From Atractiella rhizophila (taxonomy: Eukaryota): a stretch of DNA of 64,000 nucleotides. Each line of letters starts with the position of its first letter. Positions within the stretch are counted from its first letter, which is position 1. This document shows positions 12,851-62,134 of the stretch, in pieces. Location: the NCBI GenBank assembly GCA_021432655.1, contig MU271426.1, positions 1 through 64,000 of the forward strand. Direction: 5' to 3'. The notes beneath the pieces are model-generated. The model saw only the letters and a list, made by a program, of their open reading frames with translations, searched no databases and had not been told where the DNA came from. The translations under genes were made by a program, and so were the position numbers.

Positions 12851-13011
12851 TGTTGATTCCAAGCGTCTAAGGAATGCATTACAATGAAGTTATAATGGGC
12901 TTTTATACCTTGAGGAACTTGGCAAAATGAGAGAAACAGCAAGGGGAAAGAAACTAGAGCCACAAATGACAGTGGCACGAATGCAGCTTAAAACGGTGCC
13001 AAAATCTGATA
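12851..13011. mobile_element. Solo LTR family A
   Basis: Homologous to 58282-58446; 5-bp TSD CTCAT on both sides. Confidence 0.9.
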
Positions 13012-13849
13012 CTCATTACTCTATTCATCTCATAAATCGACAGTCACCGGACTAGAGAGGTGGAGGAAGGAGGAATAAGGGAGTAGGGTTGGGACAGAAG
13101 GAGTGGTGATGGAGATTGGTTTGGCTTGATGGGATATGGGGAGGAGAGGAAATCTAGTCCAGTGTAGTTACTTCGATCTTCGCGAAGAGCTTCAAGACCG
13201 TGCCGTAAAGCTCTATAATTGACATCACCATCATCCATCAAGGCGGCCGGGGCACGTCGGGTCCGCTGGGAAAGGGGCTACTGTTTTCGGCACATACCCA
13301 GGATACCATTTCCGCTGGGTGCAAAACTGTCTCTCAGAGATGAGTAAACGTGAATCCTTCTGTCGCAGACATGGCACGAAACAACCATACAACTTAGTTG
13401 GAGAATATGGGCTCACCGACATCATATGTATTTCTATTCCCTCAGCCAAGGCCCCAATGCTAAAATAGCATAACCCTCACTCCCACTTAGAATTCGCTGT
13501 AAATTGCATGAGGGGTAAGCCCCTGGAATCTTGCAGGGCTGGTCTAGTGCTGACCTAGTCACTCAAGGCACTACCACTCAAAACAGTGCATGCTTAGAGC
13601 TGGTTTAGGGCCGATTTTTGGCTCCGCAGCAGTGACGACTCAGTGCTTTTAGTGCCCTGCCAGTGCCTCTTTGGTGCTTTTGTGTAAATCGCATATTTAG
13701 TGCTTTTAGTGTACGGCGAGTGCATTGTAGTGCTGCTTTAGTGCTTGAAAACAGTGCACGTCTAGTGCTATTATAGTCGCGCTCCAGTGATGGCTCAGGT
13801 GCAGGAGAAGTTCTGTGTTATGGATAGAATTGCACTCGTTGTACCCCTA

Positions 13850-21169: not shown

Positions 21170-21350
21170 GCCACACATGTAGCATGAAGTTATTACAGGT
21201 GCAATCAATTAGTGTGTTCCAGAAGTTTTTTAATAAAGGATCGAGTGCACTCTATCGATGATTCAGCACAGCCACACTATAGTTCAATCAGCTATGGACA
21301 CCTTGTACAACATCTGCTCTGCTCACCTGCAGTACCACACTCACCCGTCA
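21170..21350. repeat. Dispersed ~170 bp repeat module, copy 1 of 3
   Basis: Shares AGTTATT..., GTTCCAGAAGTT and TGCAGTAYCAC blocks with 31935-32103 and 61960-62125. Confidence 0.75.
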
Positions 21351-21570: not shown

Positions 21571-21735
21571 TGTCAGAGTTTGGCACCGTTTTAAGCTGCA
21601 TTCGTGCCACTGTCATTTGTGGCTCTAGTTTTCTTTCCCCTTTGCTGTTTCTCTCATTTTGCCAAGTTCCTTAATTTATAAAAAGCCCATTATAACTTCA
21701 TTGTAATTCATTCCTTTAGACCCTTGGAATCAACA
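21571..21735. mobile_element. Solo LTR family A (inverted orientation)
   Basis: Reverse complement of 58282-58446; 5-bp TSD AAGTG on both sides. Confidence 0.92.
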
Positions 21736-28318: not shown

Positions 28319-30181
28319 CTACTGACTGTACTTTAGGGTTCAATACCCTGCCTCTGTCAGGAGTGAGATCCTGGCTGAATCCTTGCCTCCTGGCTGCATA
28401 GGGTCCGACCTTGCCTCTGTCAGGAACAAGATCGTGGCTACATCCTGCCTCCTCACCTCCCAGGGTACTCTGCCAGGAACAGGATCCTGGCTGAATGTTT
28501 GCCTGATTGCCGCCCAGGTTACAACCCTACCTCGGTCAGGATGCTGGCTACATCCTTGCCTCCTAGGCAGCCAGGGTACGACCCTGCCTCCAATAAAAAT
28601 AGCATCATCACAAAACTGTTGGCTCTCAGTCAACCAGGGTAGAACCCTGCCATAGATAGGGTCTGAGGGGTGCAATTTTGCTGAAACTGCCCCATGTCGA
28701 TAGGTCATTGACAGCAGGTGTAGAGGTGTGAAAAGTGCAACTTCGCTCAAAACTTCCCCAGTCAATAGATTATTGCCACAGGTATAAAAGGGGTGGGGAA
28801 AATACAATTTCACTTGAAACGTCCCCAGTCGATAGGTTATCGACACAGGTGTAGAGGGGATCACTGCAGTGCAATTTCCTTCAAAATGTCCCCAGTCGAT
28901 AGGTTATCACCTACGATAGCTAATGAGGATGTGGAAACAATGTTCACATATATACGCAATTTAAGTATAAATGATATATGACTGCCACAGAGATCCTCCA
29001 GCTCCATAAGCTTCATGTGATAAAATTTTTCCTCAACATTGCTTGTTTTACATCATTACTCGCACTCACATTACGTTTACTAGTAGATGTAACAATATCA
29101 AAGGCTTTTAGAATAACATAATATCCGTTTGTCTTGATGTAAGATCTTTTAGCAATAATCTTATTTATGAATGATAAAATCATTATTAATTTTACTCTTA
29201 GTTCACAATGATTTAAAACAACCATTTCAACAGGTCACATTTGTTAAAGCTTTCTTAACACCTTTTTATTTTATTTGTATTACTATTTTCAAGTGCTCGA
29301 TCACATTCAGCATTGGTGATACATTCATGTTTGTGTATACACCAGATTGATTCTACACAATTCAGTCCTTTGATTAATCACGGATATATCCAATGCATGC
29401 ACTACCTTCAGCAGGGTATCAATCTATCCATGCCCATAACTACTCTTAAGCGGCTGCATAGCTCAGTTTTAACATAATTTTGGTTTGCAGACCCATCTCC
29501 AGCTGCTGTTGATAACTTATCGACTTGGGCCCCTTTCAACAAAATTACACCCCTCAGACCCCTCTCTACCTGGTGTTGATAACCTATTGACATGGACCAG
29601 TTTCAATAAAATTGCTCTCCTCAAACCCCTCTTCGACTGTTGTCGATAACCTATCAATCTAGCGCAGTTTCACCAAAATTACACTTATTGTTAATAACAT
29701 ATAGAGAACACATGTCTCACCATTATAAATTAATTTTGCAACTTTGAATGTATTTTGTTTAATGGGAGATATATGCTAAATATTATCTAGAGCAGTCCAA
29801 TGAAACAAGCATTTCAATGGATAAGTGATTTAAAGATGTGTCTTAGAGAGGACATTGCCTGTGTCTGCGAGTGTTTATGAGTACATGACACTTTGACTGG
29901 ATTGTTATTCCTATCTGTGGCAGGGTTCTACCCTGGTTGACTAAGAGCCAACAATTTTGTGATGATGCTATTTTATTGGAGGTGGGGTCACACCCTGATT
30001 GCCTAGGATCCTGTTCCTGACAGAGGCAGGTTGTACCCTGGGGGCCTAAAAGGCAAGGATGTAGCTAGGATCCTGTTCCTGACGGAGGCAGGGTTGTACC
30101 CTAGGCGGCGAGGAGGCAAGGATGTAGCCAGGATCCTGTTCCTGACAGAGGCACAGTTGAACCCTAAAGTACTGTTAGTAG
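28319..30181. mobile_element. Foldback-type non-autonomous element with long modular inverted arms
   Basis: Ends CTACTRACWGTACTTTAGGGTTCAA are inverted. ~60-bp tandem units (GCCTCTGTCAGGAACAGGATCCTGGCTACATCCTTGCC) and an inner GTCGATAGGTTATC motif set are mirrored on both arms around an AT-rich core. Confidence 0.85.
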
Positions 30182-30294: not shown

Positions 30295-30555
30295 TGTTGA
30301 AGTTCAGCCCGCTACCACCTTTCACTGCTTACTAAGAACGACGCGACACCACATATTCGAGGGGATTCTATTTCTTCTCGCTTCTTCTTGCTTACTGATT
30401 TCTTACGTGTTGGTGTACTTTCTAGAATTTGCTTGCCACACTTTTCTCAGATATATAAACTGTGCTGAAGTCTGGGAGAAAGATGTAATAATAATAATGA
30501 TATTCTTGTTTCCTCTAAACTAATATCTTGCATCAGTAACCGCAGCCTTACAACA
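30295..30555. mobile_element. Solo LTR family C (261 bp)
   Basis: TGTTG...CAACA termini, 5-bp TSD GGTGC, internal TATATAAA. The 3' part is repeated at ~58492-58667. Confidence 0.9.
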
Positions 30556-31934
30556 GGTGCAGTCGATGAATCCCCAGCAATTGTGAAGAGGGACCCTTCT
30601 TGCTGAGATCAGGGTCGCATAGTATGCTAGGCGATCGGCAGTGAGGTAATGTGCAGGAAATTCAATGACATGAGCCTACGTCCTGGCTACGAACTCGATT
30701 ATTAATACCTATTAGGATATAGAAAACTATGTGTTGCAATTTTTGAATTTCCGACTCTAAAAAAGTCAAATTTTGAATTTCCTAACCCTCTCTAATAGGT
30801 AAGCGCCTAGGGATCTCCGCTATGCCAGCAGCTGCGTTGTTGCATGGGAGAAGCATCCTAGACAGAGCAAACATCTATTAGCTAGTGCCCACAATTGTGT
30901 TCGCCTTTCTTGCCGTCGATTTCAAGAGGAACATCGGCGTCTTGTATGCAGCAAAGACACAGTCGTCGTACCTGAGGTCGCACTCTTCTTACAGATGGGA
31001 ACCATCGCTATTCGAGGCAGCTACTGGGTGGCCAGCCTCGCGCAAAGATGGCCAATTTCAGGAGAGATCATGTACTGAGCTAGCAAGGGATTGCAGTGAC
31101 TTTCTCCCTCCAAGGAGGTGATGACGTCGAGATCGGCTTGCTGCTACAATAATGATCATTGCTCGCTGTTATAGCGGCGATGGTCGGATTTACATCCTTC
31201 CGGAGAGTGTTGCTCATGCCTGGCACAGCGGTGTGCTGGTACATACGAGGCGCAGGAGCTTTATTGCTTGTCGATGGAGTACTGATGGCCATCCTTCTCA
31301 GCACTATCGCGCTCACACATCCACTATGTGCTCTATGCATCCACCTGAAAAGCAGATGGTGGGTCTGATGAGGAGCTTTCAATGAATAGGGACAGACGCA
31401 GGGACAGACGTATTCATATTCCTCTGGACACCAATAGCGCTGTCAAATTCATGCCCGTCAGAGACACTCCACCATCTAATGACCATGAGAGAAATATGTA
31501 AAGTCGCGCTTCTATTGTGGAAGTATTGGAGGAATCGAGATGAGTTACTACCGGCTTCGATAATTCGGAAGGGGACTAGGGAAACAGCCAAAATATTACG
31601 CATATCCAATATTTCACCTTTGCAGAATGACATTGCAACGCTTCCTCGGACAGCCTACAACGCTGGCATCTTCAAGGGACCACACCAACCAGTCCTCATT
31701 GCGTTCGCCTCTTTCGATCCCTGCAGGACCTGACTAGTGGGGGTTACTTCACGTACAACTTGTCAGTCAGAACCTACTTCCACCAGATGAGTGAAGAGCG
31801 TTCCACCCACAAACAGGCATTGTTCTTGAGGAAGAACTGAGAATGACCGTAGCAGCGAACGCCAGCGGGAGAACTGTCTGTAGGCGAATTGCGAGCATTA
31901 GATCCATCGACCGTGGCAAGGAATAGAAGGCGAA

Positions 31935-32103
31935 TGTAACATATAGCACAAAGTTATTGCTGTTCCAACCAATTAGTATGTTCCAGAAGTTCCGTGAACA
32001 GCATCGAGCGCACCCTATCAATCATTAGCACATTCGCACCACAGATCAGTCAGCCATGAGCACTCTGAATCCCATCTGCTCTGCTCACCTGCAGTACCAC
32101 CTA
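31935..32103. repeat. Dispersed ~170 bp repeat module, copy 2 of 3 (directly downstream of the NLR stop codon)
   Basis: CATCTGCTCTGCTCACCTGCAGTACCAC is identical to the 21311-21338 copy; GTTCCAGAAGTT block shared. Confidence 0.75.
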
Positions 32104-32115
32104 TCAGGTGGCTCA

Positions 32116-35100
32116 TTACTCTTGGATGATGCAATATACATCAGCCATTGATCTGCAGCAGTCTTCTTCACCTCCTCGGTCGCTAACTTCCATGTAGATT
32201 ACTTTCGCCTCCTCGAATGCTTCCAGAGCGTCCTCGTTCCGCCCACTTTGAAAATCGACCCTGCCAACGCTGAACAAGCAGTCGGCTTGACCGAGTCGAT
32301 CTCCCACATCCATGTAGAGCTCATTCGCCTCCTCGAACGCCATCAGCGCGTCCTCGTTCCGTCCGCATCGAAAGTCAATCTCCCCGATGTTGCGGACGCA
32401 GTGACCTTGACCGTCTCGAGATCCCACTTCCATATACATCATCTTCGCCTGCTCGAAATCCTTCAGAGCGTCCTCGTTCCGCCCACATTGAAAATCGACC
32501 CTCCCAACGCTGAACACGTAGTTGGCTTGACCGAGTCGATCTCCCACATCCATGTAGAGCTCATTCGCCTCCTCGAACGCCATCAGCGCGTCCTCGTTCC
32601 GTCCGCATCGAAAATAGTTGGCTTGACCGAGTCGATCTCCCACATCCATGTAGAGCTCATTCGCCTCCTCGAACGCCATCAGCGCGTCCTCGTTCCGTCC
32701 GCATCGAAAATCGAAATTCCCGATGTTGAAGACGCAGTTCGCTTGACCAAGTCGATCTCCCACTTCCACATAGAGCTCCTTCGCTTCCTTCAACGCCTTT
32801 AAAGCCTCCGCGTTCTTGCCACGGTCGAGAAAGCAGTAGCCAAGGAATTCTATCAGCGAACGCTTCAGTCTTAACCAATCGAACCGTTTGCGATCTGCAG
32901 AAAGTGGCATTCCAAGCATTTTATCCACAACACACATCGCCTGTTGAAAGAGTGAAGTTGAGAGCCTATGTTGCAGGCGTAGGAAGTGAAATATGTTCTC
33001 TAAGTGCTGAAGGATCGGTAAAGGATCTGGCAGGTTCAACATGCTCCAGAGAAGGACTTGTTCGAGGTTCGGATAGTGTTCACGGAAGAGAAGCAGCGCA
33101 TAATGATCCTTGTAGGTCTCGAATTGTTTGATGTTTGCCTCAGCTTTCCCCATAAGGTTTCTTCACAACGGGCAGAAGTGACAAAGGCACAGTCATCGAA
33201 AATGGCGGTTTTGAATGAATGACAAGATGGTTGAGGTATTCACGAATAGGAGCGAGCATACGGAGAGTGCCGTTGATGTCATTGGCAAATCCAATCTTTG
33301 AAATCAAAGCGATGACCTTGAAGATACCCTGAGATTCATGCGGGATGGAAATGAGTGCTGACAGATCGTCGTGGGATAGACTGTCAGGTACCCATGACAG
33401 CAATGCGAGCGCAAAGACAGCACGCTCCCCTTCTTTTTGAGGGCCGGAGAATCGAGCGAGAACGATATAGAAGTTTGGAGGGTGACTATCTCTTCACTAT
33501 CTTCATCCCACATAACATCTGTCTTTTTCTTTTCCCACTCGTCTACCAATTCTTCGAGTGTCATAATTGGATCCCCGTTGGCACGGAGAGCGCATAACTT
33601 GATTGAAAGAGCGTGGAAGTCTAACTGTTCCAGTAGCCGATCGACAAGCGGCAGCGAGAACTCGTCCTCTCTCTGATATGAGTCCTTGAAGAGTGCGTGC
33701 GCACCGTCGTTCGGCAACCCATCAACTGAGACCTTCACAAACTTCACAGGCTCGTTCCCCGTCACGCCCAAATACTCCACTTGATCTCCACGATGGACCA
33801 CGACGAGTACTGACCCGACTGAGTTGTTCGATAGAAGTGTTCGGAAGAAGTGTTGTTTTTTGTTTTCGTCAGCACGCAGAGGAGTTTCAAAGTTGTCCAA
33901 AACAAGAAGGCATTGTCGACTTCTGAAGTATTTGGCCATGACCTGTAGTGCCGGCTCGCTAGATTGAGGCAGCGCGAATACATCGTTGCAGATGTGGTTA
34001 GAAAGCTTGGCAAAGGTATCAAAGTTATCGCAGCGAACCCAGAAGCGGAGATCTTCTCCAGTGCCCCTCTTCGTATCTGTGAAGGACTGCTCGACCTCTG
34101 CGCAGTGCACGGTGTTGAGTGCACGGTGGATTTGCCGTTCCCAGCTCCACCCACAATCGCAACGTGGCGGCCGTTAAGGATAGCTTCTCTGACGCGTCGG
34201 ATCTCGTCTTCGCGGCCAAAGCAGGAGCCTGGAGGCGGTAACGGTAACCGTCGACGGACTGCAATCCGTTCGCTGCACACTACAAGGACCTCAACGTGGC
34301 ATCAACACAAGAGCTAAGAGTACATACCCTGCACGAGGGATTCAGCAGCATTACGCGCTTCGTCGCCCATTACTTCCATATACGCCCTCGTACGGCCCAC
34401 GACGTCCTTGGTTCGCTCCCACTCCTCCCACTTGACGCCTCCCATCGTATGGACTGAAAAGCGGTGGTAACGATGCCCTAGACTGTGATCCTGCATCCTC
34501 ATCTTCAACTGATCTGCTACGTGGGAACAATCTTCGATGATTGCCTTCACAGCAAGTTCAATCTCGCCTTTAGTACCACCACATTTAACAGCCGCAGCGA
34601 TTCCTGACCCCAGGGAGACGAGGCAGGCGACTTCGCTGCCTTGCCCCCAAATGCGCTTTGACTCCTCCATCGCTAGCGCTGCCGGGTTATTGTTTCCGAT
34701 GGCGACTAATTTCGCTTTGTCGATGACAATAGGAGGAAAGAATTGAGGAGCAGAGGAAGTCGCTCTGGCTGCTTCCCACACAGTACACGTAGCAGCAGAA
34801 CGACCTGCAGCACGGACGTGGTACGTCCGCATCTCTGTTGAAACAACTGCGTCTGATTCGTACTTTGAGACGACGAAAGTTCTCCATCTGTGTTCAATCG
34901 CGTCATCCTTCATGGTAAGTTGAGAGGACGATACAGGTGATGGAGCGTATCGTGCAATGATCTTGTGGAAGACGGCTTCGAGCCTCTCTGCAGAGTACGT
35001 GTAGCCGTCTTTCGAATGTGGAGCTTCTTCGGCAAAGACATTCTGCAGGATTTGCTCGTACGCGCAGATGCACTGTCTAACAGTCATTCCCAACCGTCCG

Positions 35101-35615
35101 AGCATGAGTGCGATCCATCCTCCTGTCGAAGTGCCACAGATGAGATCGAAAACATCGCATGGCAGGACTTCTTCTCCCTCTGGAACTGCGAGGATGTCTT
35201 CAACCTGGAGCATGATGACTTCGAGCATGTAAAGGGTGGAGAATGTACAGATGCCTCCGTTGTCGATGGCGAGGATTCGGAGTCCTTGTTCGTTCGTCTT
35301 CTTGAAATTCTCCGGGACTCTGAAGATTTTGATAGTTTGCGCGTGGGCTGAGACTCGGGACGGGAGGGGTGACGGAGTTGGGACTCTGGATGCAATGGGC
35401 GTTGCGGTCCGTGACAAGAGGGCGAAAGGCGGAGGAAAAATTGTATTGACGCGTAGGAATGGACTGGGTCGAGAATACAGCTGCAGCACAGAGACGTTTT
35501 GAGCTGCTGCGCGTTCTACCGATGGAATGTCTCGCGATTTAGCGCAGGATGAGTTGACGTCGTCCAAATCCGTGGGTTCTTCATGATCGTGATCGTTGGA
35601 GGAGGTAGTATCCAT
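32116..35615 (-). CDS. Fungal NLR-like protein: patatin-like domain + NB-ARC/STAND NTPase + TPR repeats (three apparent frameshifts)
   Basis: Patatin motifs LAIDNGG, GTSTGG, ARATSSAP. A 48-bp intron (34280-34327) joins it in frame to CFGRE..GGAGNGKST (Walker A) and LLVLDNFETP (Walker B). C-terminal 40-aa TPR units. Confidence 0.88.
32150..32850 (-). repeat. High-identity intragenic TPR repeats (120-bp unit, one 96-bp unit)
   Basis: GRNEDALMAFEEANELYMDVGDRLGQA occurs three times; 32519-32614 and 32615-32710 are an exact tandem pair. Confidence 0.95.
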
Positions 35616-36359
35616 CGTCTAGACAAAGTATCGGATGATAGATAGTATCGATGATAATTAGAAGAACACAGTGACAGCGTTGAGCGCGAGACAACACTAA
35701 AATGCAAGTCAGATTTCTGCGCTCTGGACTCGGATGCCGGGAGAAAGCAGGAAAACATGCAAAGGTGCACTTGAACGTGCGGTTTCATAGCGCGAAGAGA
35801 GGAGAAGACATGAGAAATGCCTCCCCAAGTTCGACGGCGCCGTTTTAGGAGGGTTAAGCCGATCCAAAACATCCCTGAAAACATCCGTATGTACGAATGT
35901 TAGACGATGCGATCGATGAGGATGAAGGCAAGTGATTCGTGATCCACAAAGCAAAGGCTAGGAGTATCAAGGATGGCGCACTCCATATCTTCCAGCGCTG
36001 AGGCAGTGAAGAAACTGCTCTCCTAAGGACGTGAAATGATCCCATGAAGTAATCAAGGTGAACTTGAAGATGGAACGATACGTAATTTGACGAGGACGAA
36101 GTAAAACAAAAACGTGAAGTCATTTCTTCCACTCGTCCCTCAAAATTTACAGGCTACACAACGATGTCAACGTTTAGCCTCAGCCAGCCTCAACGGCCGA
36201 TAAGACCAGTTTATAGATTTGATACTCACAAGGACTTTCAAGATCCTGCGAAAGCACCAATTTCAAGCAACAGGCGATCAAGGTCCAGTGCCTTAACAGC
36301 TGAATATCAGCTCTCAAAGTTATCTGAAGCTGCAGAGGAGAGCGATGTTGGTTGATTGG

Positions 36360-39300
36360 TGGGATTCTAGATGTAGATTGAGTCCCACATCCTGAACATG
36401 CGTTGCCCAACGGTTTCCGGGTCTGAGATGTAATCTGTCGCTCCTGGCACACAGATTCAGTACCATCATTGGTGCATCCTGCTAGACCACAAGCATGTTG
36501 GACGTTCACGATGGGGTGTGGAATGCCAGCGGAGTCCTTTGTCATTGTCAGAGTTCCATTCAGTCTGAGTGTAAGGGACATTCTTACCATCTTCCATGAC
36601 AACTCCGTATCCTCTCCGTCTGGCTGAAGAAGTGGCATGCTGAAGGAGGGGTGAACACCAGCAAAATTCACACGACGCCCAAACGCCTTTACCAGGCTGG
36701 CATCAAGCGAAGGGGATTCAACTAGCAGCAGCTCACGGATGTAAAAGACATAAGCATCCTGAGCTCCGTTCGTTAGTCAATTTGGCCACAACAGCTTACA
36801 GCAAAGTGTTGTGCATGCCGCAGGGGTCACATTCACCAGTACAAAGCTTTGGTCCGTTGCATCTTCTTCTGAACGGGTCTTGAAGCTTCGAAGGCGTGAA
36901 TGGAGAAAGTTGTTGAAGTTCTTGCCATCGGATGAAATTGGAAGGTCAGGGCAAATTCGGTGCAGGATGGTTTCCTTAGCTGGTATTTCCCGTTTACGTT
37001 GCGGTGCTAAAACCCATGACCCTGGAACAACCTAGTCATTGCTTGCAAGTTGGCTAAATTAGCCATACCAGGAGTTGTACTGCCATTTTGAGAGTTGTGT
37101 TGCAGAGTCGGGATGTCAAGAGTGAGATCCAAAAGACGCCGAAAGGTTGGATCTTCTAAGATGTTACAAACTTTGATGGAGGCAACAACCTATTCTCCAG
37201 TAGCAACATCTTTCCAACGACCGCCACTGAAAATGTGTCTGACTCTGTCAAATCCACTGAATGATCGGGCAATATCCTTCCCAGGAGCATGGCGATTCGA
37301 GTGGACTGACTTCAACTGCATCACTCCATTGTAGCTTTCGAATTTCTCAGTGGCATAGTTGATTGGAACCCCAAATCGCTTCACATTATCCACAAGGTGA
37401 ACAAGAAAGATGGAATTTGCGCTTGTTGAACCATTGTGTGGTTAGCGAAGCCGTGGTATCAAGAATACTTGATTGTGCTTTCTAAATTTTCCTGGTGTAA
37501 AAAACCTCATCAGCCAAACCGGGTCAGTTGTGGATTGAGAGATCATACAAGGTACATTTCTTTATTAGCCACTCTAGGTGGCCAAACTATACTCCCAAGT
37601 CTCCCAAGAGCAATCCAGATTTGAAAGTACGGTTGTTCAATAAGCTGATCGAGCGCAAAAGTAGCAATCTGGAAGATAACTCGAAAGTCTTTACCGACTA
37701 AACTGTGAGTGTAATCAACTAGAGTCTCTCCATTAATGCGGGAGACTTCTAGAATGTCAAACAGTTGGTCAATAACTTTTACGGATGTCAAACAGTTGGT
37801 CAATAAGGAACGTGGTGAAAGTGTCCTTGATACCGGTAGAGGTTTGAAGCTCCGAGATCTGACTTTTAGGGAGGGGAGGATCAGCGGCGGTTCGAAGCAT
37901 TGCCTGCAGGATTTCATATGTTTGAAAAGGTTTACGATATTGACTGCACTATCAAGCTACAATAAGTAATTGTAAACAAAAGCATTTGCCAATACTTGCA
38001 TGAACTTGGTAATGTTCACTTCGATCTCCTCTTCAGCCTTTGTTTCAGCACCAACATGACAGGTCCGTGGGAACTTCAGGGATGCTAGACCTCCAATTGA
38101 GCAGAATTCGGATTGCATGGGATTGTCTCCTTCAAAAAGGAGCACAAGGGGTCGATATACGACTTCTTCTCCTAGCTGAGCATCCCACACAGACCTAGGA
38201 GTTCTCCAGGCGTCCCTACACACCCATGTGGACTGAATGATGCGAAGCATTACAACAACACATGAGAACATCACAAAAGTCACATACAGAATTTGAGTGG
38301 TGACACCCTCAAGCAATTCCAATGCGCTTGCAACGTGGAAGTACCCAAAAAGTTGATGAAGAACTCCTGATGTTGCAGTTTGTTTGGGAGACCTAGTAGC
38401 AACAGAAGTCAGCTTACGTGGAGCAGAAAAAATAATCAGAGACATGACAAGTCATTACCTACTAGATCAGCGTAGAATGACTGATGCTTGTTCCATTTCT
38501 TCGAGCGGTTGCCAGAGCTGTCATCCGCATACAAAATGACGGGCACTGTCACTACCCTTTTGCCTGGATGAGCAGTGCGAAGATCAGAAATTGAGACCGA
38601 AATTTCAGTATGTTGGAATCCATCAGCTGCGGTAATCATGCCTGAGAAGAAGCTGGTCAGATGTAAATCTACTAAGCTTTAGGTCAGAAAAGGTACCTTT
38701 GATCTTATAGCTCCTCCGAATGTGTTCCCTAGTACTGAGTCCATTCCGAACCATGCTCTTCAGAGGGATGTCCAGAACACTTCGGCAGTCAATAACTAGT
38801 CCCTGGATGTTGCTGGGTAAGTTTACTTGATACACTCGGCCAAAAATATCGCCATTCTGGAGGATCCAACGAGATGTGATGAAGAACCGGCCATCTTCAA
38901 GCTCGCTGACTTCATCTACAAAGAAGAGAGATGATCCATACTGGACAGAAGGGGTAAGGAGCCGTGGCCTAAGTTCCTTGAGCCATTTCTCCGCCTGATA
39001 TATCTCCTGAATCTGATTGGGGGTACTTTCAGGAAGAAATGTGAGATGCTGGCGAATCAATGGATTAGCAAATTGCCTGTGATATGTTTAAGATCATTGT
39101 CAATGCTCTTGGATAAGTCAAATGAAACAGACCTCTGCAATCATTGTTGGTAGATCATTGGCATACACAAGATTGCTTCGGTGTCCACGATATTCCTTTG
39201 TCTCAGCTCCTACACCCACTGCCTTCATTTTCTCAGCAAAAATCTTCATGCTTTCCTTAGAGGGCAGAGTTGCTTTCGGAGCATTATCCATTCCCATTTC

Positions 39301-39905
39301 AGGGATCATCTTCCATAAAACCTCCCGGAGTAGTTCCGAGACATCATTTCGCAAGTAGTTAAGGAGGATATCGGAGTAGGCATGCTGCACAAACAGACTA
39401 TGATATAAGGATACAGGTAAAATTTGGGCAGTGATTTCACTGGCCTGTTTGCTCGGATATGGAAAATACTCCAAAGACTCCATAATGACTGGACGGGCTG
39501 ATGGTCCTTTATCTATCTTCTATCTATTCTTCTAAGAGCATTGGGTTTCTTGGCATGAGTCATAAGACGCACTTTTGAGCCCTCACACCTCCCACACCAT
39601 GCACAATAGAATGAAATGAATTATACCATCATAACCCATATGCTTGCCCCTTTCTGAAGCTGTGAGGAAATTTTATTCTGAGGGGGATAAACAAATGTGT
39701 CCCATACTGGACTCGAACCCTTACAACATCACTATGGGGTTCAAGGGGCCATGCCCCTTGCGAGTGGGTTGGAGGCCTGAGGGACGAAATCTGCTGATAC
39801 ACTTGTCACTCACTAAGCGATCAATCAGACCCGAATAAAGTGACTTGAATAACAAACGAGAAGGTGTAGCCAGCAGAACAGACTCCATCTCATCTTCCAG
39901 CTCAT
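36360..39905 (-). pseudogene. Basidiomycete CMC-related DDE transposase relic (second clade)
   Basis: PVILYADDSSGNRSKKWNKH, GDNPMQSEFCS, SLVGKDFR, VKRFG..YATEKFESYNGV..SNRHAPGKDIA, VNVQHAC. Interrupted by Helitrons at 39512 and ~39915. Confidence 0.7.
39512..39805 (+). mobile_element. Non-autonomous Helitron, second copy
   Basis: A|TCTAT 5' end (alternative start 39523), CTTG|T 3' end, colinear with 10588-10868. Confidence 0.8.
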
Positions 39906-39914: not shown

Positions 39915-42900
39915 TCTTCCTTACCTCTAAAAGCCATCCGTTCTTGGCATGAGTCATAAAACGCACTTTTGAGCGTTCATACCTCCCTCAGCAGGCACAT
40001 TGAAACGAAATGAATTACACCATGTTACTGCATATGTTTGCGTCTTTCTGGAGCTGCAAGGAAATTTTATTTTGAAGTGGTGAGAAAAAGTGTTTTGCAG
40101 CGGACTCGAACCCTTTACAACCGTGTACTCTGCTTTCCCCGGCTCCACTGGCTTCCCTCCCCACTTGGCCCACTTGGCCGCTAAACACCATGCGCAGCTG
40201 CCCCGCAAAGCAACCGCAGCACACGGCGCCAAAACAAGGCCGCACGCTATTTCTTCAGCGCATGTTGGGATTTCTCAAGTCGGGCGCCAAAAAGTGTCAT
40301 TTGCCTACCTTAAGGGGAAGAAAGTGAGCACATGTGAGCTAGAATATACTGCCTTTAGTGCTTTCTGACAGCACTTTAGAATCATCATGCCCCACCCTAA
40401 GCAAAAAAATGGCGCAAACCAAGAGTTCATGCTCAGCAGCAACGACGAGAAGAGAGCCAGTCAGATACCCCTCAGGCTGCTCCACAACGCACAGAGAGAC
40501 GTCATGCAGGACTGCCCCAGCGTTTTCAGATTACACAACCTACCCCACCTCAGCACTTGACACGCCAAATTCGTGAGCAACAGCAGCAGGCTCAACCTCT
40601 GAGGGTACGACGACAACGTCGGCAGCCAGACCCTCAGCCTTTAGATGGAGACATCACTGAAGGATCCTCTGATGGAGAATTTGGGAACAATGATGTTCCT
40701 GACCCAAGGATGGTGCCACCAAGAGATGAAAGGCATGATCGGCATCCTTTCATCACATTTAACTACTCTTCGGGAACTGTGGAAGCCGTGCGGCTTTCTG
40801 GCTGGAGCGTAGTCTTCTGCTCAGAATGCAGTGCCTTCCGTTGGCTTGAGGAGCGAATAGTCAAGAGCTCTAAGCGTAATCCGAAATTTACGAACTGCTG
40901 CTCCCATGGAAAGATTGTTCTTCCTGCTTATGAAAATACTCCACCAGAGTTGTTTCAGCTGTTCACCAATCCAGATACGCATGAATCAAGACAGTTTCGT
41001 GAGAATATCCGCTCCTACAATAATGCTCTTTCCTTTACTTCTCTCAGAGTCAAGCGTCCACCTATCCCTGGGCATGGAGTTTACACTTTCCGGATTCAAG
41101 GGGAGCTTTGCCATCGCATCGGTGCTTTGCTTCCGGAATCTGATGGCGAAGAAAAGTTTGCACAGATATATATGCTGGATTCTGAAGAGCAGATTCGTTA
41201 AAGAATAGGGACCATTAGAGGGAACAAACTTAAGGAAGTGACATTGAGAAAGTTGCAAGACATGATGTGGCGAGTTAATCCATGGCCGGAAATCTATAAA
41301 ACTGCAAGGGAGCGTATGGCAGATGACCCAGCATTACAACTCCACATTCGAACTATTAATCCTACAGATCTCCATCCCGTCGATATAATAGGCCAACAGG
41401 TCATGGCATAGGAGAAATTGCAGTGCTTCTCATTGGAGAAGAATCAGGAGCCACCGCAGGTGTCACAAGAGATATTGTGGTCAAACTCCGACGGCCTGAT
41501 GGTCAGAACTTTTATGAAAAAGTCAGTGATCAAAATGCCAACTATCTCCCACTGCGATTTCCACTTTTATTTCCATATGGTGAGCAAGGTAGGCACACGT
41601 ACATTCCCCTCCGTCATGGTGATCTGCTTCAACGTGGTCCACGGGAAGAACATCGAAATAATGACGGACAAATAGTTGGAAACATGGGAGAACGAGTCCA
41701 TGTTACGCAGATGGACTATTACTCCTATCTTTTCACCCAAAGAAGAATACTTTCTCTCTCATTCACCATGGTGGTCGACTATTTCAAGAATTGGTTTACG
41801 ATGCTTACGCCCAAATAGAGAGTGGAAGATTGAAGTTTCTTCGGTTCAATCAAGATCTTCTCCGAACTGAATCCTATGCTGGACTTGGTGACGCCTTAGA
41901 AGATGGCCGAGATGCAGCAGATGTTGGGAAGCGGACCATTTTACCATCCACACATACTGGAAGCCCACGTCAAATGAATCAACAATTTCAGGATGCGATG
42001 GCGATTGTTGGAAACAGAGGTTCTCCCGCTATCTTTACAACATTCACCTGCAATCCTCGATGGCCCGAAATCACAGAAGCCCTGCTTCCTGGACAAACAG
42101 CTGCAGATAGGCCAGACTTGGTCTCTAGGGTTTTCAACGTGAAGGTGAAGGCCTATATGCAGGACATCAAAGATAACTCAATCTTTGGACGGACAGTTGG
42201 CTTTGTCTGGGTGATCGAATTTCAGAAACGTGGTCTGCCTCATGCTCACATCCTCATCATTCTCAATGCCGAAGACACCATCCGGGATGTTGAGGCTATC
42301 GACCGCATAGTATCTGCTGAATTGCCTGACAAGGACACCGATCCTGAGTTATTTGACATTGTCTGCAATCACATGCTCCATGGACCCTGCGGAGATATCA
42401 ACCCAGATGCTCCATGCATGATAGATGATCCTAAGAACCCTGGGAGAAAAATCTGTGGCAAAGGGTTTCCAAAGCCCTTTGCAGAAGAAACAGGCATCCT
42501 CCATCTTTACCTGAAGAAATCGATGACGGTCCCTCTGATGGACAACAGGAGGGAGCATTTGACAATACTGATCTGCCTGATCAAATGGTGGTAGCTCCTT
42601 GGGATGCAAGACGAGATTAGCATGGTTTTCTCACATTCAACTACTTACCAGATACAGTGGAGGCCATCAGACTTTCGGGCTCGAATGAATCCTTTTGCTC
42701 AGAATGTGGTGCCTTTTATTGGCTCGAAGAACGGATAGTAAGGAGCTCTAAGCGGAATCCAAAGTTTTGTCACTGTTGTTCTCTGTGAAAGTTTGTTCTT
42801 CCTGCTTAAGAAGAAATGTTCTTTCCTTTACTTCTCTTGGAGTCAAGTGGCCACCTATTCCTGGGCAAGGTGTTCACTCTTTCCAGATTCAATGGGAGCC

Positions 42901-43200
42901 ATGCCATCGTATTGGAGCTTTGCTTCCTGATTCTGACAGAGATGAACAGTTTGCACAAATCTACATGCTGGATTCTAAGAGGAGATTGGACAAAGAGTAG
43001 AGATCATTGGACAGCACGAACTCAAGGAAAGGACTTTGAAGAAGTTGCAAAGAATGATGTCGTGAGTTAATCCCTGCGCATAAATTTATAAAATAGCAAG
43101 AGAGCATAGGGAAGATAACCCAACTTTGAACCTGCACTTGTAAACTATTGATCCTACTGATCGGGACCCTTGATGATACAATAGGCCAACAGGTCACCAG
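39915..43200 (+). mobile_element. 3'-truncated autonomous-type Helitron
   Basis: The 5' ~190 bp match the non-autonomous copies. It is followed by the Rep coding region and a decayed duplicate of its N-terminal part. The 5' boundary is approximate. Confidence 0.8.
40387..42500 (+). pseudogene. Helitron Rep (HUH endonuclease) N-terminal part; helicase absent
   Basis: CSEC.A.RWLEE..CCSHGK, FRENIRSYNNALSFTS, GSPRQM...QDAMAI, FTTFTCNPRWPEI, VIEFQKRGLPHAHILI (HUH), HMLHGPCG. Breaks off after CGKGFPKPF. Start approximate. Confidence 0.92.
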
Positions 43201-43400: not shown

Positions 43401-44259
43401 GGAAATAAAGGAAGTGGTTGCCCTGCTGTCGACGAGCGCCGATGTGGCATGTCAGGAATGTGGATGATGAAACGTAGTTCTGAGTTTTGTTTTTGAGCTG
43501 ACAAGGGATACAGTTGTTGAACATAAGTGGGCTTTGTCATATATTTTTGTAACATCTACACATCTTTGTCTCCAAGAGGGAAAATGTAACTTTGGAAATG
43601 GGGAGTCATGTTCAGGAGAAGGGAAATCTGTGCAAAGCGGCACTTTGTTGGAAGTGATTTTACTTGACGAAAATGGATTGTGAGTCGGCGATGGAGACAC
43701 TTCTTTCACACATTGCCGTCTCAAAAATCCTCATCCAGATCTGTCAGCTCGTTTTCAGCAACTGGTTGGCGATTTGTGCAGATTGTCGTTCTTGTAGTAC
43801 AAGACGAGTGTCGAAATATTCTCCTTGTGCACAACGATATTGCTCTTTGCTCACGGACATCTTGCATTCCTTCTCTCTGCATCCGATTTTTTTGGCACCT
43901 TCGACAATGAGGCGTCTGAACTCAGTTGCGTCCACCTCCATATAATTGGGGTCATTGGCTTCATGAGGCTGCAAAGTGGTAGTCAGCAACAAAGCGGTGT
44001 CAGGTTTGTATTATGCAAATTGGCCTCCATTCATCCGTTTGTGTTCTTCGTGACTCTGGTGAGACTCATTTGATTCCCTTCAGCTTCCTCTTCGTTCCAT
44101 GCTTTCTGATTATTCCATATTTCTAAAATGACCAGTCATTCCCAACAGTGCAGATTAACCCTTTATACCCAAGGTTCAACACACATATCCTCAATTAAGA
44201 ATCTCAATCACTTCCACTTGTGGTCTAGTCAATGACAATAGGCATTGGAGCATCCTGAG

Positions 44260-44720
44260 GCATGCGAAAAGCCACTCCAAGCCTCCTTTCATCTTTCCAT
44301 CATGTCTCCACCATGCTCGTAAGAGCATCAACTTGCGAACAGTTTCTGCTTTCAGTGAAGCACGACGCAAGGAGATGACATCCCGTCCAGAGGAAAATAC
44401 GCGTTCGACGGCAACGGAGGAAGCTACCAAGATGATCAGTGATCCGAGTACAACATTAACTAAGTTGTGAGCACATACCTGGAATGCTCACCACGTCCTT
44501 GGCCAAAGGAGCCAACGCAGCAAATTTTCCACTCTGGGCATGCTTTTTCCACCACAGCTCACATCAACCTGAGCATCCTTAACACAGTCTTCCGAATCCA
44601 CCTCTTCCTTAGCACTCAAGTAATTCCAGTACCGTTCCAGAGGATGAAACTGTGAAGTATTGCTGATCTTTCGAGCGTTGGGGAAGAGACGTGCGTTGAG
44701 TTTCTCCACAGCGGTCATGG
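44260..44720 (-). pseudogene. hAT transposase C-terminal dimerisation domain fragment
   Basis: ASSVAVERVFSSGRDVISLRRASLKAETVRKLMLLRAW, preceded by an intron and an LERY...WW-type exon. Confidence 0.88.
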
Positions 44721-53139: not shown

Positions 53140-53740
53140 AAGGCTCAAAAAGCCATTGCAATGTTCCTTCTTACATTGAGTCCACCAACAATGCAAAGCA
53201 TCAGCTTTTGGATGGCTTCCGCCTTGAGGGAAGCATGACGAAAAGAAATAACGTCTCTCTGTAGAAAATACATGTTTAACTGTGACCGCAGAGGCTGCAG
53301 TAAGATCTGCTTCAGAGAGCACATAGAATAGAACAATGCCACTAACCCGGAATGCAGAGGATGCCACTAGCTAGCGAGCTCAAAGCTTTATAACATCCTC
53401 CTTTTGCCTGCTCATTCCACCATGCCATCAGGTCGGTATCATCGTCCCCTTCTGGTACTCCATCCTCTGAGTCTTGGAGCTTGTGCAAGTGTTTCCAAAG
53501 CTGATTGAGTATGTGATCCATGGTTGTGGTGACAATTCGAGCCCTTCTCCAGATACATTTACCAAGCTTCTGCTTTGTGACTGATGCTTTGGAGGATACA
53601 TTTTGCAGCTCCGTGTAAGATGCTACAGTGGTGGTTGAGGTGAGGTCACTGTATTCTTTGTCGAACTTCTTCTTCAAAAGATCATTCACATTCTCCAACA
53701 GATAATATTCAAAACTATGATGAGGATCTTCAAAAGTTGC
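53140..53740 (-). pseudogene. hAT transposase C-terminal relic
   Basis: DLMAWWNEQ..YKALSSLASGILCIP, then after an intron ASAVTVKHVFS..VISFRHASLKAEAIQKLM. Confidence 0.8.
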
Positions 53741-55419
53741 TAACCCATGCCAGGGATTAAAGAAACCAATGAATTAATTATACTCGTAGGTACAGGACCC
53801 ATACTCACGAGTACTGATCATTTGAAAGTTGATTTGTGACTTGTTGTGGATGAGCAGCACAAGTACCCTTGACTCATGAGTATTACTCACAGGTACCTGT
53901 AGATTACCCACTCTCTTCCTGAGTCATCAAAAATGAAGACTGTAGTGTGGATAATTTAATATAAAGTCAAATATACCACTACATTCACTTTAATATGGCT
54001 TGTTATAGTTAAAACCCTTAAAATGACTACCTTCATGGCTCAAATATATGTATTTACCATAAAACTTCACCTTAGGTACACAAGCAACTCAGTTAGACAA
54101 GGAACAGATGGAAGGCAAGTTGAAAAGAGTCCTGCAGCATTATGAGCAGGACAGCAGGCTAAGAAAGGCACTTACTCTTAACATTCGAAACTTTTACAGT
54201 GTAAAGGCCAGAAACTTGAAGGTGATTACCCATGAGCGAAAAAAGTGCGCACCAGTAGGAGACAGATCAATTTCAACGGCTACATTGGCGAGCACTGCCA
54301 AAGCAGTGGCTGCTTTGGATTCTACTGTCATTTTGAAGTGAGGCTACGAAACTGGTTAATCTAGGCAATGTGGATAAAGCACATACGTTCCCTGTTGACT
54401 GCACTTTGGATGGTTGACTACAGAGGGAAGTTTGGGTGGTAATCTGATGAAGTGCTCCCTAGCAGCCGTAATCAATACCAATCAACCAACAAAGTAAGAG
54501 ATAAACATGGGGCCAGTTTCTTGCAGTTGTTTACGGCAATTTTATGTTTCTCTCTACCGGCTCCAATCAAGAAAGGTTTATGTTGAGGATGGAACTAAGC
54601 TCACCGGTGTATGCAAGTTTGAAATAATTTCTACTTCAGGCTGTCGAATAACAAACCATGTTCATTCTCAGCAAAGAACATTCAAAAGGAACACACACCA
54701 AAGTGTTTGTCCTGTCTGCTTGATATCTCGCTCCTTTTTTCTCCCTCTTCCTCCGAGCATCATTCCGATTTGCAATATAGTTTTGAATGAGCTTCTTTGC
54801 CTTCCAGTTATTATAACATAGACCAATTCTGGAACCTGAGCTGATTAGAGATTGACAACAGAGCTGGATGAGATGCGGATGCCCCTTAGGAAACTGAAAA
54901 GACAGTCTTATTTGGAAAAGTGTCTACTGGGATTTTCGCGTTCTTTAGTTGCAGTTCCTGATTCTTTGCCTCCAAGTCCACAATTCAACTTCTTTGATAC
55001 ATTCTGCCCTGGTCCGCCTCAGCAATACGAGCCTTGAAATTGTCTTGATTTTCAAGGAGCGAACTAAGGAGGAGTTGAAGGTTGTTGGAGGAGAGATTTG
55101 GGGTTGGTGGAGCTTTGTGTGCAAGGGCATTGAATGAGAGAGCGGTTGAACAGGTTCCTTGGCCATAAGGGCCAGGAGATGATCCTAAAAGTGCTGACAA
55201 GTCGCTGTTAGACCCTGTGGTGTGTGGTGTTGAGTCTGAAGACATCTTGAGAAGGTCAGTGGCTGTTTTGAAAAGTAAACAAGAGTATTTTGTATTGTAG
55301 CTGCACATGATTCTACAAGGCGCCTGCTAGTCATTTATCTGCAAATAAATCAGAAGCAATCTCTTCTTTACCGATAGCTTTATGCCACAGCAGAATTGAC
55401 ATCAAAATACGAGCCAAAG

Positions 55420-58281: not shown

Positions 58282-58446
58282 TGTTGATTCCAAGGGTCTA
58301 AAGGAATGAATTACAATGAAGTTATAATGGGCTTTTTATACCTTAAGGAACTCGGCAAAATGAGAGAAACGGCAAAGGGGAAAGAAAACTAGAGCCACAA
58401 ATGACAGTGGCACGAATGCAGCTTAAAACGGTGCCAAACTCTGACA
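58282..58446. mobile_element. Solo LTR family A (165 bp, best preserved copy)
   Basis: TG...CA termini and 5-bp TSD GAAGG. Confidence 0.93.
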
Positions 58447-62125: not shown

Positions 62126-62134
62126 TTTCTCTTG

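What the first reader, a model, noticed from the sequence alone, without database searches (positions are those of the whole stretch)
32116..35615. Patatin-NB-TPR NLR (PLP-1-type architecture) isolated among transposons
Seen: patatin, P-loop NTPase and TPR segments join into one gene through a 48-bp in-frame intron plus three single-base shifts. Established: this domain order matches Neurospora PLP-1 and Podospora het-z PaPlp1, allorecognition NLRs that act with SEC-9. Inference: a basidiomycete non-self recognition receptor in a fast-evolving compartment. No SNARE partner is visible in the window.
Basis: partly seen in the sequence, partly recalled or inferred. Interest (0 to 1): 0.7.

Follow-up and report, generated by a model that had tools for sequence, protein, structure and literature searches.

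The report
Transcribed, frameshifted fungal patatin-NLR pseudogene
This is a real fungal immune-receptor-type gene (lipase-like head, nucleotide switch, repeat sensor), but three one-base shifts break it, and it is one decaying copy of a gene family that has multiplied in this one fungus.

Summary
On the minus strand, from ATG 35615 to TAA 32116, a patatin domain, a P-loop NOD and a TPR array lie in one gene. They are joined by a 48-bp GT..AG intron (34327-34280) and three single-base frame shifts (34123/34122, 33438-33427, 33163-33158).

The shifts are neither introns nor assembly errors. Contigs of three public runs from two samples cross each one without a gap. One of these contigs lacks exactly the intron, so the broken gene appears to be transcribed. 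As it stands, the message encodes a 601-aa protein that stops at 33762, without the NOD core or the TPRs.

The first exon is 100% identical to an Atractiella rhizophila protein model. At least 26 A. rhizophila models are paralogs, and none of them is complete.

The family's patatin domain keeps the nucleophile serine but lacks the catalytic aspartate. Its NOD has an NB-ARC/STAND fold, yet it groups with non-patatin fungal NB-ARC-TPR proteins rather than with ascomycete patatin NLRs. No SNARE gene lies in the window.

Verdict: this is a recently inactivated member of a lineage-specific patatin-NOD-TPR family. It shares the PLP-1 domain order but is not shown to be a PLP-1 relative or an allorecognition receptor. 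Interest is modest.

The parts
35616..35696 (-). 5' untranslated part of the ATG-bearing exon; AG acceptor at 35698-35697, so a 5'-UTR intron lies upstream (inferred)
   Evidence: An X3 contig of 511 nt fits only 35276-35696, while DNA contigs of X1 and X2 run on to 35800 (table 8). The sequence reads ttag|tgttg.
34328..35615 (-). Coding exon with the start codon (35615-35613); 429 codons plus one base; frame -3. Residues 1-91 are predicted disordered and residues 95-429 form a patatin fold.
   Evidence: 100% identical to P0029 residues 1-429. Model pLDDT 77.9; Foldseek hits CapV at E 5e-14 and patatin 1oxw at E 2e-12.
34671..35267 (-). Pfam Patatin (PF01734) match
   Evidence: E 5.4e-12, 46.8 bits against a cut-off of 27.7; ORF residues 118-316 match profile positions 3-190 of 191.
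35253..35264 (-). DNGG, at the place of the patatin oxyanion motif DGGGxR (here DNGGIC)
   Evidence: Alignment A1; position.
35121..35135 (-). GTSTG nucleophile elbow; the serine is kept
   Evidence: Invariant columns in A1.
34695..34709 (-). LVAIG at the place of the catalytic-Asp motif (x-x-D-G-G); the Asp is replaced by Ala
   Evidence: A1. 14 of 15 A. rhizophila sequences lack the Asp, against 39 of 41 other sequences that have it.
34280..34327 (-). 48-bp in-frame intron, GT..AG
   Evidence: Sequence. X3 joint 34279>34328 'skips 48', ends CT..AC on the + strand. Paralog proteins read ..LVQVCSERIAV.. across it.
34123..34279 (-). Start of the second coding exon, frame -3, with Walker A GGAGNGKST at 34151-34125
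   Evidence: aligned to paralogs.
34122..34123 (-). Frame shift 1: one base missing relative to paralogs (-3 to -2)
   Evidence: Ten or more paralog proteins switch frame exactly here. Contigs of X1, X2 and X3 cross it with 0 gaps. One other X1 contig (depth 201 of 281) has an extra base at this place (tables 4 and 8).
33427..34122 (-). NOD core in frame -2 (not translated from the message as it stands); Walker B LLVLDNFE at 33909-33886
   Evidence: 62% identity to P0028 over 232 aa with no gap. 17 of 21 family-conserved columns are kept.
33762..33764 (-). Premature stop met by the reading frame that is actually open; the product is 601 aa
   Evidence: ORF 33762..34301.
33427..33438 (-). Frame shift 2: one base missing within the runs A5 and G4 (-2 to -1)
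   Evidence: Contigs of X1, X2 and X3 cross it with 0 gaps.
33161..33430 (-). Helical linker / winged-helix part of the NOD, frame -1
   Evidence: Aligns to P0028 residues 425-520 and to P0041 and P0085.
33158..33163 (-). Frame shift 3: one extra A (-1 to -2)
   Evidence: Window SLLPVVK/NLMGKAE against P0028 SLQPLTNHLMQKPE, read. Contigs of X1, X2 and X3 cross it with 0 gaps.
32119..33159 (-). C-terminal part in frame -2, with a TPR array of 40-aa units at about 32850-32140
   Evidence: TPR_12 at E 4.9e-27. 120-bp period, 3.6 copies. Units are 48-90% identical to each other.
32519..32711 (-). Exact 96-bp tandem duplication (2.0 copies, 100% match) that cuts one TPR unit to 32 aa
32116..32118 (-). 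Stop codon (TAA) of the ancestral reading frame
32087..32088 (-). GT of a probable 3'-UTR intron donor (cag|gtgagc), inferred
   Evidence: An X3 contig of 408 nt fits only from 32088 upward (table 8); sequence.

Best explanation
The locus is a recently inactivated, still transcribed copy of a patatin-NOD-TPR NLR gene. It belongs to a family that multiplied in Atractiella rhizophila.

Shown: the ancestral gene had one coding intron and encoded about 1,150 aa. These comprised a disordered N-terminus, a patatin-fold domain, a P-loop NOD of NB-ARC/STAND fold, a helical linker, and about six 40-aa TPR units. Three one-base indels now break the frame.

Inferred: the spliced message yields only a 601-aa protein, made of the patatin domain, Walker A and 118 out-of-frame residues. 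An intact ancestor would have worked as other STAND receptors do. The TPR array holds the NOD off until a ligand binds. Nucleotide exchange then drives oligomerisation, which brings the N-terminal patatin-like domains together to damage membranes or to signal death. Because the family's patatin domain has lost the catalytic Asp and the oxyanion Arg, that last step cannot be the canonical Ser-Asp lipase reaction. This copy can no longer sense or oligomerise.
For: The domains and their order are established.

The shifts are real. Paralog proteins align through each site without inserted residues. Contigs from three runs of two samples cross all three sites with 0 gaps and 0 other letters. The exact contigs have a depth of 80-112, like the single-copy flanks at 88-92 in X1, so no second allele is seen.

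Transcription and splicing are indicated by one X3 contig that lacks exactly 34280-34327, and by two X3 contigs that stop fitting at an AG| and a |GT site where the DNA contigs run on.

The product is 601 aa.

Inactivation is recent. There is no stop in any ancestral frame segment. 17 of 21 conserved NOD columns are kept, and 3 of the 4 differences are shared with P0028.

The family is large and broken. 18 A. rhizophila hits came from the patatin search and more from the NOD search. Of the 26 models checked, 0 have the Ser motif, P-loop, Walker B and TPRs together. The search of 761-2170-aa proteins found no Atractiella protein.

The NOD is homologous to NB-ARC. 37 of 46 relatives match Pfam NB-ARC and 33 of 46 match TPR_12. 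hhalign to ascomycete patatin-NLR NB-ARC gives probability 96.8%, E 2.3e-10. The model of P0028 (NOD pLDDT above 90) hits Apaf-1 at E 2.3e-9, and also NRC2, CED-4, MalT and ZAR1.
Against: X1 and X2 may be the very reads the assembly was made from, so only X3 is independent, and its library type is not on record. Calling X3 RNA is my inference from the joints.

Contigs drop rare variants, so a minor intact allele could be missed. One X1 contig at 90% likeness or more carries the base missing at 34122 (table 4). I read it as a paralog because its depth is about twice single copy, but an allele is not excluded.

The untranslated parts look fully intact. That fits very recent loss, but it would also fit a gene that is functional in other isolates.

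The paralog census rests on annotated protein models only, since no genome is held. Gene-model errors could hide an intact copy.

The window's own NOD pieces pass no Pfam cut-off. A profile of Atractiella sequences alone finds no solved STAND protein.
Confidence: 0.8

Rival explanations
1. The gene is intact and functional, and the three shifts are assembly or base-calling errors (two lie in homopolymer runs). The locus then encodes a working 1,150-aa patatin-NOD-TPR receptor.
For: Two of the three shifts sit in A5/G4 and A3 runs. No stop occurs in the ancestral frames. Conserved NOD residues are kept. One X1 contig has the base missing at 34122.
Against: Nine contig pieces from three runs of two samples reproduce the window letter for letter across all three sites (table 8). 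Shift 1 is not in a homopolymer. The public protein model of the locus (P0029, 511 aa) also fails to read through.
Confidence: 0.05
2. The truncated product is the functional unit. A 601-aa patatin-plus-P-loop protein, freed of its sensor, would be kept as a constitutive or decoy form that modulates intact paralogs. This would explain why so many family members are annotated as patatin-only proteins.
For: The broken gene still appears to be transcribed and spliced. Many paralog models end within 35-69 residues after the P-loop: P0030, P0033, P0034, P0036, P0038 and P0225. The patatin part is well conserved among the paralogs, at 62-74% identity.
Against: The paralogs break at different places and read into different wrong frames, which looks like independent decay rather than a selected form. 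The downstream NOD and TPR sequence of this copy is still intact, which a long-standing truncated form would not preserve. There is no protein-level evidence.
Confidence: 0.1
3. Patatin and NOD-TPR are two separate genes, as in the public annotation, which calls a 511-aa patatin protein here.
For: The public model P0029 ends at 34028 and nothing is annotated downstream of it in my searches.
Against: P0029's tail comes from a 55-bp intron choice and reads the NOD region out of frame. The X3 contig supports the 48-bp intron and bridges the patatin end to the P-loop. Paralogs P0037 and P0041 carry patatin, P-loop and Walker B in one chain. No start codon or promoter-like gap separates the parts.
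Confidence: 0.03
4. The shifts are decoded by programmed frameshifting or transcript slippage, so a full-length protein is still made.
For: Two shifts lie in slippery-looking homopolymers.
Against: There are three sites in two directions (-1, -1, +1), one of them not in a repeat. X3 contigs show the genomic letters at all three sites. Paralogs lack the shifts, so no conserved recoding signal exists.
Confidence: 0.02

Closest known systems
PLP-1 of Neurospora crassa, HET-Z1 of Podospora anserina and VIC2 of Cryphonectria parasitica (patatin / NB-ARC / TPR allorecognition NLRs paired with the SNARE SEC-9)
   Same: They share the three-part order: patatin-like N-terminus, P-loop NOD, C-terminal TPRs. 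This comes from review passages read and preprint passages read. Dyrka 2014 (PMC4986451, passages) reports that patatin in fungal NLRs is almost always paired with NB-ARC.
   Different: This copy is frameshifted. The catalytic Asp and oxyanion Arg of patatin are absent, whereas PLP-1 needs patatin enzymatic activity. No SNARE gene is in the 64-kb window. The NOD is not detectably similar, at E up to 10, to that of three ascomycete proteins of the same architecture used as stand-ins (P0003, P0004, P0006). The gene's home is a Pucciniomycotina basidiomycete.
Fungal NB-ARC-TPR NLRs without a patatin domain (for example P0093 of Collybia nuda, P0101 of Mycena galopus, and unnamed metagenome proteins)
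   Same: These are the nearest relatives of the NOD outside Atractiella, at 75-80 bits and 22-25% identity. They share the Walker B signature LLVLDNxET and the TPR_12-type repeats.
   Different: None of the 35 non-Atractiella members of the 43-tip subclade holding the Atractiella NODs has a patatin domain. Their N-termini are absent or of other kinds: SIR2_2 and MLKL_N each occur in 4 of the 46 scanned.
Patatin-fold phospholipases: potato patatin Pat17, the CBASS effectors CapV and CapE, iPLA2-beta and PlpD
   Same: They share the fold. Foldseek gives E 5e-14 to 1e-8 with TM 0.65-0.76 on the target. The GxSxG nucleophile elbow is kept. CapV and CapE are also immune effectors.
   Different: The Ser-Asp dyad is incomplete (LVAIG in place of xxDGG), and DGGGxR is DNGGIC. 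The Foldseek table gives no residue-level structural superposition, so the Asp loss rests on sequence alignment.
Paralogs in Atractiella rhizophila (P0028, P0030-P0044, P0083-P0090, P0171, P0225)
   Same: They share 41-74% identity in patatin and 62% in the NOD (P0028). They have the same Asp-less motif, the same intron position and the same 40-aa TPR unit.
   Different: Most read straight across the window's shift 1. Each model is truncated elsewhere, and none is complete.

Membership tests
Fungal NLR / STAND receptor (effector domain + NOD + repeats) | Walker A P-loop (GxxxxGK[ST]) | tested here: met
   GGAGNGKST at 34151-34125, in frame with the patatin exon.
Fungal NLR / STAND receptor (effector domain + NOD + repeats) | Walker B and the conserved NOD core | tested here: met
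   LLVLDNFE at 33909-33886. D, N and E are invariant or nearly so in 85 relatives. 17 of 21 conserved columns are kept.
Fungal NLR / STAND receptor (effector domain + NOD + repeats) | Match to a curated STAND model (NB-ARC, NACHT, nSTAND) above its cut-off | tested here: not met
   Window pieces: nSTAND1 16.8 bits (cut-off 27.1), AAA_16 17.3 bits, and nothing for the core. P0028: NACHT 23.5 (cut-off 26.7), NB-ARC 11.6 (cut-off 23.5). Only the paralog P0083 passes NACHT, at 27.9 bits. An Atractiella-only profile finds no solved STAND protein.
Fungal NLR / STAND receptor (effector domain + NOD + repeats) | Homology and fold of the NOD to NB-ARC/STAND proteins | tested here: met
   37 of 46 relatives match NB-ARC at E of 0.001 or better. 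hhalign gives 96.8% probability. The P0028 model hits Apaf-1, NRC2, CED-4, PH0952, MalT and ZAR1 at E 2e-9 to 1e-6. These tests were done on the 62%-identical paralog, not on the window's broken protein. The Atlas features of the window's own core point to NB-ARC clusters, as a lead only.
Fungal NLR / STAND receptor (effector domain + NOD + repeats) | C-terminal superstructure-forming repeats | tested here: met
   TPR_12 at E 4.9e-27; 40-aa units with a 120-bp period.
Fungal NLR / STAND receptor (effector domain + NOD + repeats) | One uninterrupted reading frame through all three parts | tested here: not met
   Three one-base shifts are confirmed in contigs of three runs; the product is 601 aa.
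PLP-1 / HET-Z1 type allorecognition NLR | Patatin N-terminal domain | tested here: met
   PF01734 at 46.8 bits against a cut-off of 27.7; patatin fold.
PLP-1 / HET-Z1 type allorecognition NLR | Catalytically competent patatin domain (activity reported as essential for PLP-1 death) | tested here: not met
   The Ser is kept, but the Asp of the dyad is replaced (LVAIG) and DGGGxR is DNGGIC. The requirement is taken from passages read.
PLP-1 / HET-Z1 type allorecognition NLR | NOD and TPR of common descent with PLP-1 | tested here: inconclusive
   No PLP-1 sequence was in hand. With three ascomycete proteins of the same architecture as stand-ins, there was no phmmer hit at E up to 10 and they are separated by a branch of 1.74 in the tree. 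Profile-level homology exists only at the level of NB-ARC in general.
PLP-1 / HET-Z1 type allorecognition NLR | Linked, polymorphic SEC-9 SNARE partner | tested here: not met
   No SNARE or SNAP-25 family was found among 260 ORFs of 75 aa or more outside the gene. Short exons could be missed, and a partner elsewhere in the genome is not excluded.
PLP-1 / HET-Z1 type allorecognition NLR | Allelic polymorphism or balancing selection between isolates, and a death phenotype | not testable with these tools
   Only one genotype was seen. X1, X2 and X3 are letter-identical at this locus.
Patatin-like phospholipase (PF01734) | Ser-Asp dyad (GxSxG and DG[GA]) with the glycine-rich oxyanion motif | tested here: not met
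   GTSTG is present. The Asp is absent in 14 of 15 A. rhizophila sequences, against 39 of 41 others that have it; the other two were mis-anchored by the script (A1).

The most novel reading that the evidence does not exclude
Atractiella rhizophila built its own patatin-NLR by fusing a patatin domain to an NB-ARC-TPR lineage that elsewhere has no patatin. It lost the catalytic Asp before amplifying the gene to a dozen or more loci, whereas patatin NLRs average 1.7 per fungal species in Dyrka 2014. The Asp-less patatin domain would then be a non-canonical death or signalling module, either a serine-only hydrolase or a non-enzymatic membrane-binding module. The family would be in rapid birth-and-death turnover, with transcribed truncated copies such as this one possibly acting as sensor-less modulators.
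Probability: 0.2. Interest if true: 0.5.

Novelty: new member of a known kind. Interest (0 to 1): 0.3.

Why it matters
Taken by itself, the locus is an ordinary casualty of NLR birth-and-death evolution, and it should not be counted as a working receptor or as a PLP-1 orthologue.

Three points are worth keeping. First, the public annotation of this locus, a 511-aa 'FabD/lysophospholipase-like protein', uses an intron that the spliced contig does not support, and it hides the NLR nature of the gene. Second, the family shows that the patatin/NOD/TPR architecture can be assembled more than once, because its NOD groups with non-patatin NLRs. This fits the 'recurring inventions of domain architectures' noted by Dyrka et al. 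2014. Third, an expanded family whose patatin domain lacks the catalytic Asp would be a natural test of whether patatin effector domains of NLRs must be lipases. That test needs an intact paralog.

Tried and rejected
1. Whole-genome census: no genome is held for this window. Paralog counts therefore rest on annotated proteins and on contig counts.

2. RNA evidence: no RNA holder is listed. Only contigs could be laid, so levels, ends and strand of transcripts are unknown.

3. Introns as the cause of the frame changes: rejected. Paralog proteins align across the sites without extra residues, and X3 contigs have no joint there.

4. A 14-bp direct duplication at the P-loop (caccgtgcact twice) as the lesion: rejected in favour of a one-base loss, because P0028 and others read GKSTVALNTVH.

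5. Pfam on the window's NOD pieces at E up to 1: only nSTAND1 at 0.071.

6. An Atractiella-only profile against PDB sequences: no STAND hit. The earlier hits to AfsR and ZAR1 came from a profile that also held canonical NB-ARC proteins, so I do not lean on them.

7. The gene as cargo of a repeat: the flanks are single-copy in depth, no LTR or TIR pair brackets it, and no second copy is in the window.

8. The long open wrong frame after shift 1 (118 codons, also open in the paralog model P0031): considered as dual coding. I left it as chance plus shared ancestry and did not test it.

9. Heller et al. 2018 (PMC5878007) is not held. What I say of PLP-1 comes from passages of two reviews and one preprint.

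10. Literature searches for 'Atractiella' with 'NB-ARC' and with 'patatin' found 0 papers each. Supplements were not consulted, and the species tables of Dyrka 2014 or Wojciechowski 2022 might list Atractiella counts.

11. Earlier notes of this scan: nothing to show.

12. No complex prediction was run, because there is no candidate partner.
Full report
**What is there.** On the minus strand, five stop-to-stop ORFs tile 35618..32116. Pfam finds Patatin on the first (E 5.4e-12, 46.8 bits, cut-off 27.7) and TPR_12 on the last (E 4.9e-27). The second ORF, which carries GGAGNGKST, gets only sub-threshold nSTAND1 and AAA_16 matches. The two middle pieces get nothing.

**Gene structure.** The first coding exon ends at 34328. 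A 48-bp GT..AG intron (34327-34280) follows and keeps the frame. A contig of run X3 joins 34328 to 34279 with no other difference on 113 and 242 letters either side. Paralog proteins read ..LVQVCSERIAVRRRLPLPPPGSCF.. across the junction.

The public model of this locus is P0029 (511 aa, Atractiella rhizophila), which is 100% identical over 429 residues. It uses an acceptor 7 bases further on and therefore reads the NOD region out of frame.

Two further X3 contigs stop fitting the genome exactly at an AG| (35697/35696) and at a |GT (32089/32088). The DNA contigs of X1 and X2 run on at the 5' site. I read these as UTR introns and X3 as RNA-derived. This is an inference, because the run's library type is not on record.

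**The three shifts.** tblastn of the paralog P0028 (62% identical over 232 aa of the NOD core) and of 25 other A. rhizophila models fixes the frames as follows:
- frame -3 from 35615 to 34123;
- frame -2 from 34122 to about 33433;
- frame -1 to about 33160;
- frame -2 to 32116.

At each switch the paralogs align residue for residue with nothing inserted, so these are not introns. Relative to the paralogs:
- one base is missing between 34123 and 34122;
- one base is missing within the A5/G4 runs at 33438-33427;
- there is one extra A at 33163-33158.

Contigs of X1 and X2 (one sample) and X3 (another sample) cross every site with 0 gaps and 0 other letters (table 8). X1 and X2 may be the assembly's own reads, so X3 is the independent witness. 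One other X1 contig carries an extra base at 34122, at about twice single-copy depth. I take it for a paralog (table 4).

The spliced message as it stands encodes 601 aa: the patatin domain, Walker A at residue 476, then 118 out-of-frame residues up to the stop at 33764-33762.

**Age of the damage.** No stop interrupts any ancestral frame segment. The untranslated NOD core keeps 17 of 21 columns that are at least 80% conserved among 85 relatives, and 3 of its 4 departures are shared with P0028. A perfect 96-bp tandem duplication at 32519-32711 cuts one 40-aa TPR unit to 32 aa. The inactivation is therefore recent.

**The domains.**
- *Patatin.* An AlphaFold model of the first exon (pLDDT 77.9; residues 1-91 disordered) matches CapV, potato patatin, CapE, iPLA2-beta and PlpD, with E from 5e-14 to 1e-8. 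The nucleophile elbow GTSTG is kept. The DGG motif that supplies the catalytic Asp is LVAIG, and the oxyanion motif DGGGxR is DNGGIC. Across the session's sequences, 14 of 15 A. rhizophila sequences lack the Asp; the exception is P0042, which has DGV. By contrast, 39 of 41 others have it, and the remaining two were mis-anchored by my script.
- *NOD.* It is very divergent. Neither the window's pieces nor P0028 reach any Pfam STAND cut-off, and a profile of Atractiella sequences alone finds no solved STAND protein. However, of 46 of the best 150 hits of an exhaustive search with P0028, 37 match NB-ARC and 33 match TPR_12. hhalign to the NB-ARC of three ascomycete patatin NLRs gives 96.8% probability. 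A model of P0028, with the NOD at pLDDT above 90, hits Apaf-1, NRC2, CED-4, PH0952, MalT and ZAR1.

**Family and relation to PLP-1.** Eighteen A. rhizophila proteins match the patatin exon at 41-100% identity. The NOD search adds more. Of the 26 models examined, none has the Ser motif, P-loop, Walker B and TPRs together. Several stop 35-69 residues after the P-loop, each at a different place and in a wrong frame. The search restricted to proteins of 761-2170 aa found no Atractiella protein. In the DNA runs, up to 14 variant contigs cover a single conserved site. Patatin NLRs average 1.7 per species in Dyrka et al. 2014 (passages), so this is a marked and largely decayed expansion.

In a FastTree of 136 NOD sequences, the seven Atractiella NODs, the window's included, form one clade (support 0.997). 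This clade lies inside a 43-tip group whose other 35 members have no patatin domain. The three ascomycete patatin-NLR NODs lie across a branch of 1.74 and were used as the root. phmmer finds no similarity to them at E up to 10, whereas non-patatin NLRs score 75-80 bits. The architecture therefore looks independently assembled. These three proteins are stand-ins, because no PLP-1 or HET-Z1 sequence was available.

**Surroundings.** There are 260 ORFs of 75 aa or more outside the gene. Among them Pfam finds:
- Helitron_like_N (41665-42591);
- two hAT dimerisation fragments (44194-44487 and 53345-53773);
- a class I tRNA synthetase (62344-63818);
- a weak Cullin match.

It finds no SNARE. The Atlas points to a Plavaka/Transposase_21-like relic just upstream, as a lead only. 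The left 40 kb has no recognisable domain.

**Verdict.** The locus is a transcribed, recently broken member of an Atractiella-specific patatin-NOD-TPR family with an Asp-less patatin domain. It is not a demonstrable PLP-1 relative or an allorecognition receptor.

Noticed in passing
window 34273-34028 (-), public model P0029: The public protein model of this locus uses a 55-bp intron, with an acceptor 7 bases beyond the one seen in the spliced contig. It ends in 82 residues read from the wrong frame of the NOD region, so the annotation hides the NLR.
   Followed up: yes
window 34122-33762 (-), frame -3: The wrong frame entered after shift 1 stays open for 118 codons. The homologous wrong frame is also open, to the same end point, in the paralog model P0031. 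This is probably chance plus shared ancestry.
   Followed up: partly
window 31880-32128; copies at 21175-21338 and 61913-62138: The 3' flank of the gene, including the putative 3'-UTR intron donor, is a short dispersed repeat (77% and 67% identity). The third copy lies just 3' of the tRNA-synthetase gene.
   Followed up: partly
window 36183-39519 (-): A row of five minus-strand ORFs (133-198 aa) has no Pfam match. The Atlas features of 37960-38451 point to Transposase_21/Plavaka clusters (score 0.96, low recognition), so this is likely a CACTA-type transposase relic directly upstream of the NLR gene.
   Followed up: partly
window 40401-42976 (+): A Helitron Rep/helicase N-terminal domain lies at 41665-42591 (E 4.6e-58). 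It has internal direct repeats (40671-40934 / 42549-42812 at 72%; 41022-41183 / 42815-42976 at 83%).
   Followed up: no
window 28349-30153: A foldback-like element: several inverted-repeat pairs (65-110 nt, 74-95% complementary) built of 57-67-nt tandem units, about 2 kb downstream of the gene.
   Followed up: no
window 2366-2493, 12885-13012, 21571-21735, 58282-58446: A short dispersed repeat (up to 165 nt, 93-98% identity between some copies, in both orientations), MITE-like. The sequence next to the 58.3-kb copy also recurs at 30374-30558.
   Followed up: no
window 1-40000: None of 150 ORFs of 75 aa or more in the left 40 kb (outside the gene) matches any Pfam family at E of 1e-4 or better. 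This is an unusually blank stretch for a fungal genome.
   Followed up: no
window 62344-63818 (-): Exons of a class I aminoacyl-tRNA synthetase (tRNA-synt_1 and Anticodon_1 matches). This is the only housekeeping gene recognised in the window.
   Followed up: no
paralog P0083 (A. rhizophila, 1235 aa): This is the longest family member found. It starts mid-patatin, has an intact NOD and about 13 TPR units, and ends in a BAG domain (PF02179, E 3.5e-9). It is either a fusion with a neighbouring gene model or a real C-terminal addition.
   Followed up: no
paralog P0042 (A. rhizophila, 638 aa, partial): The model joins a patatin domain that keeps a DG motif directly to TPR units with no NOD. It lies on a contig of the same length (33455) as P0030, which may mean a cluster of family members.
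   Followed up: no
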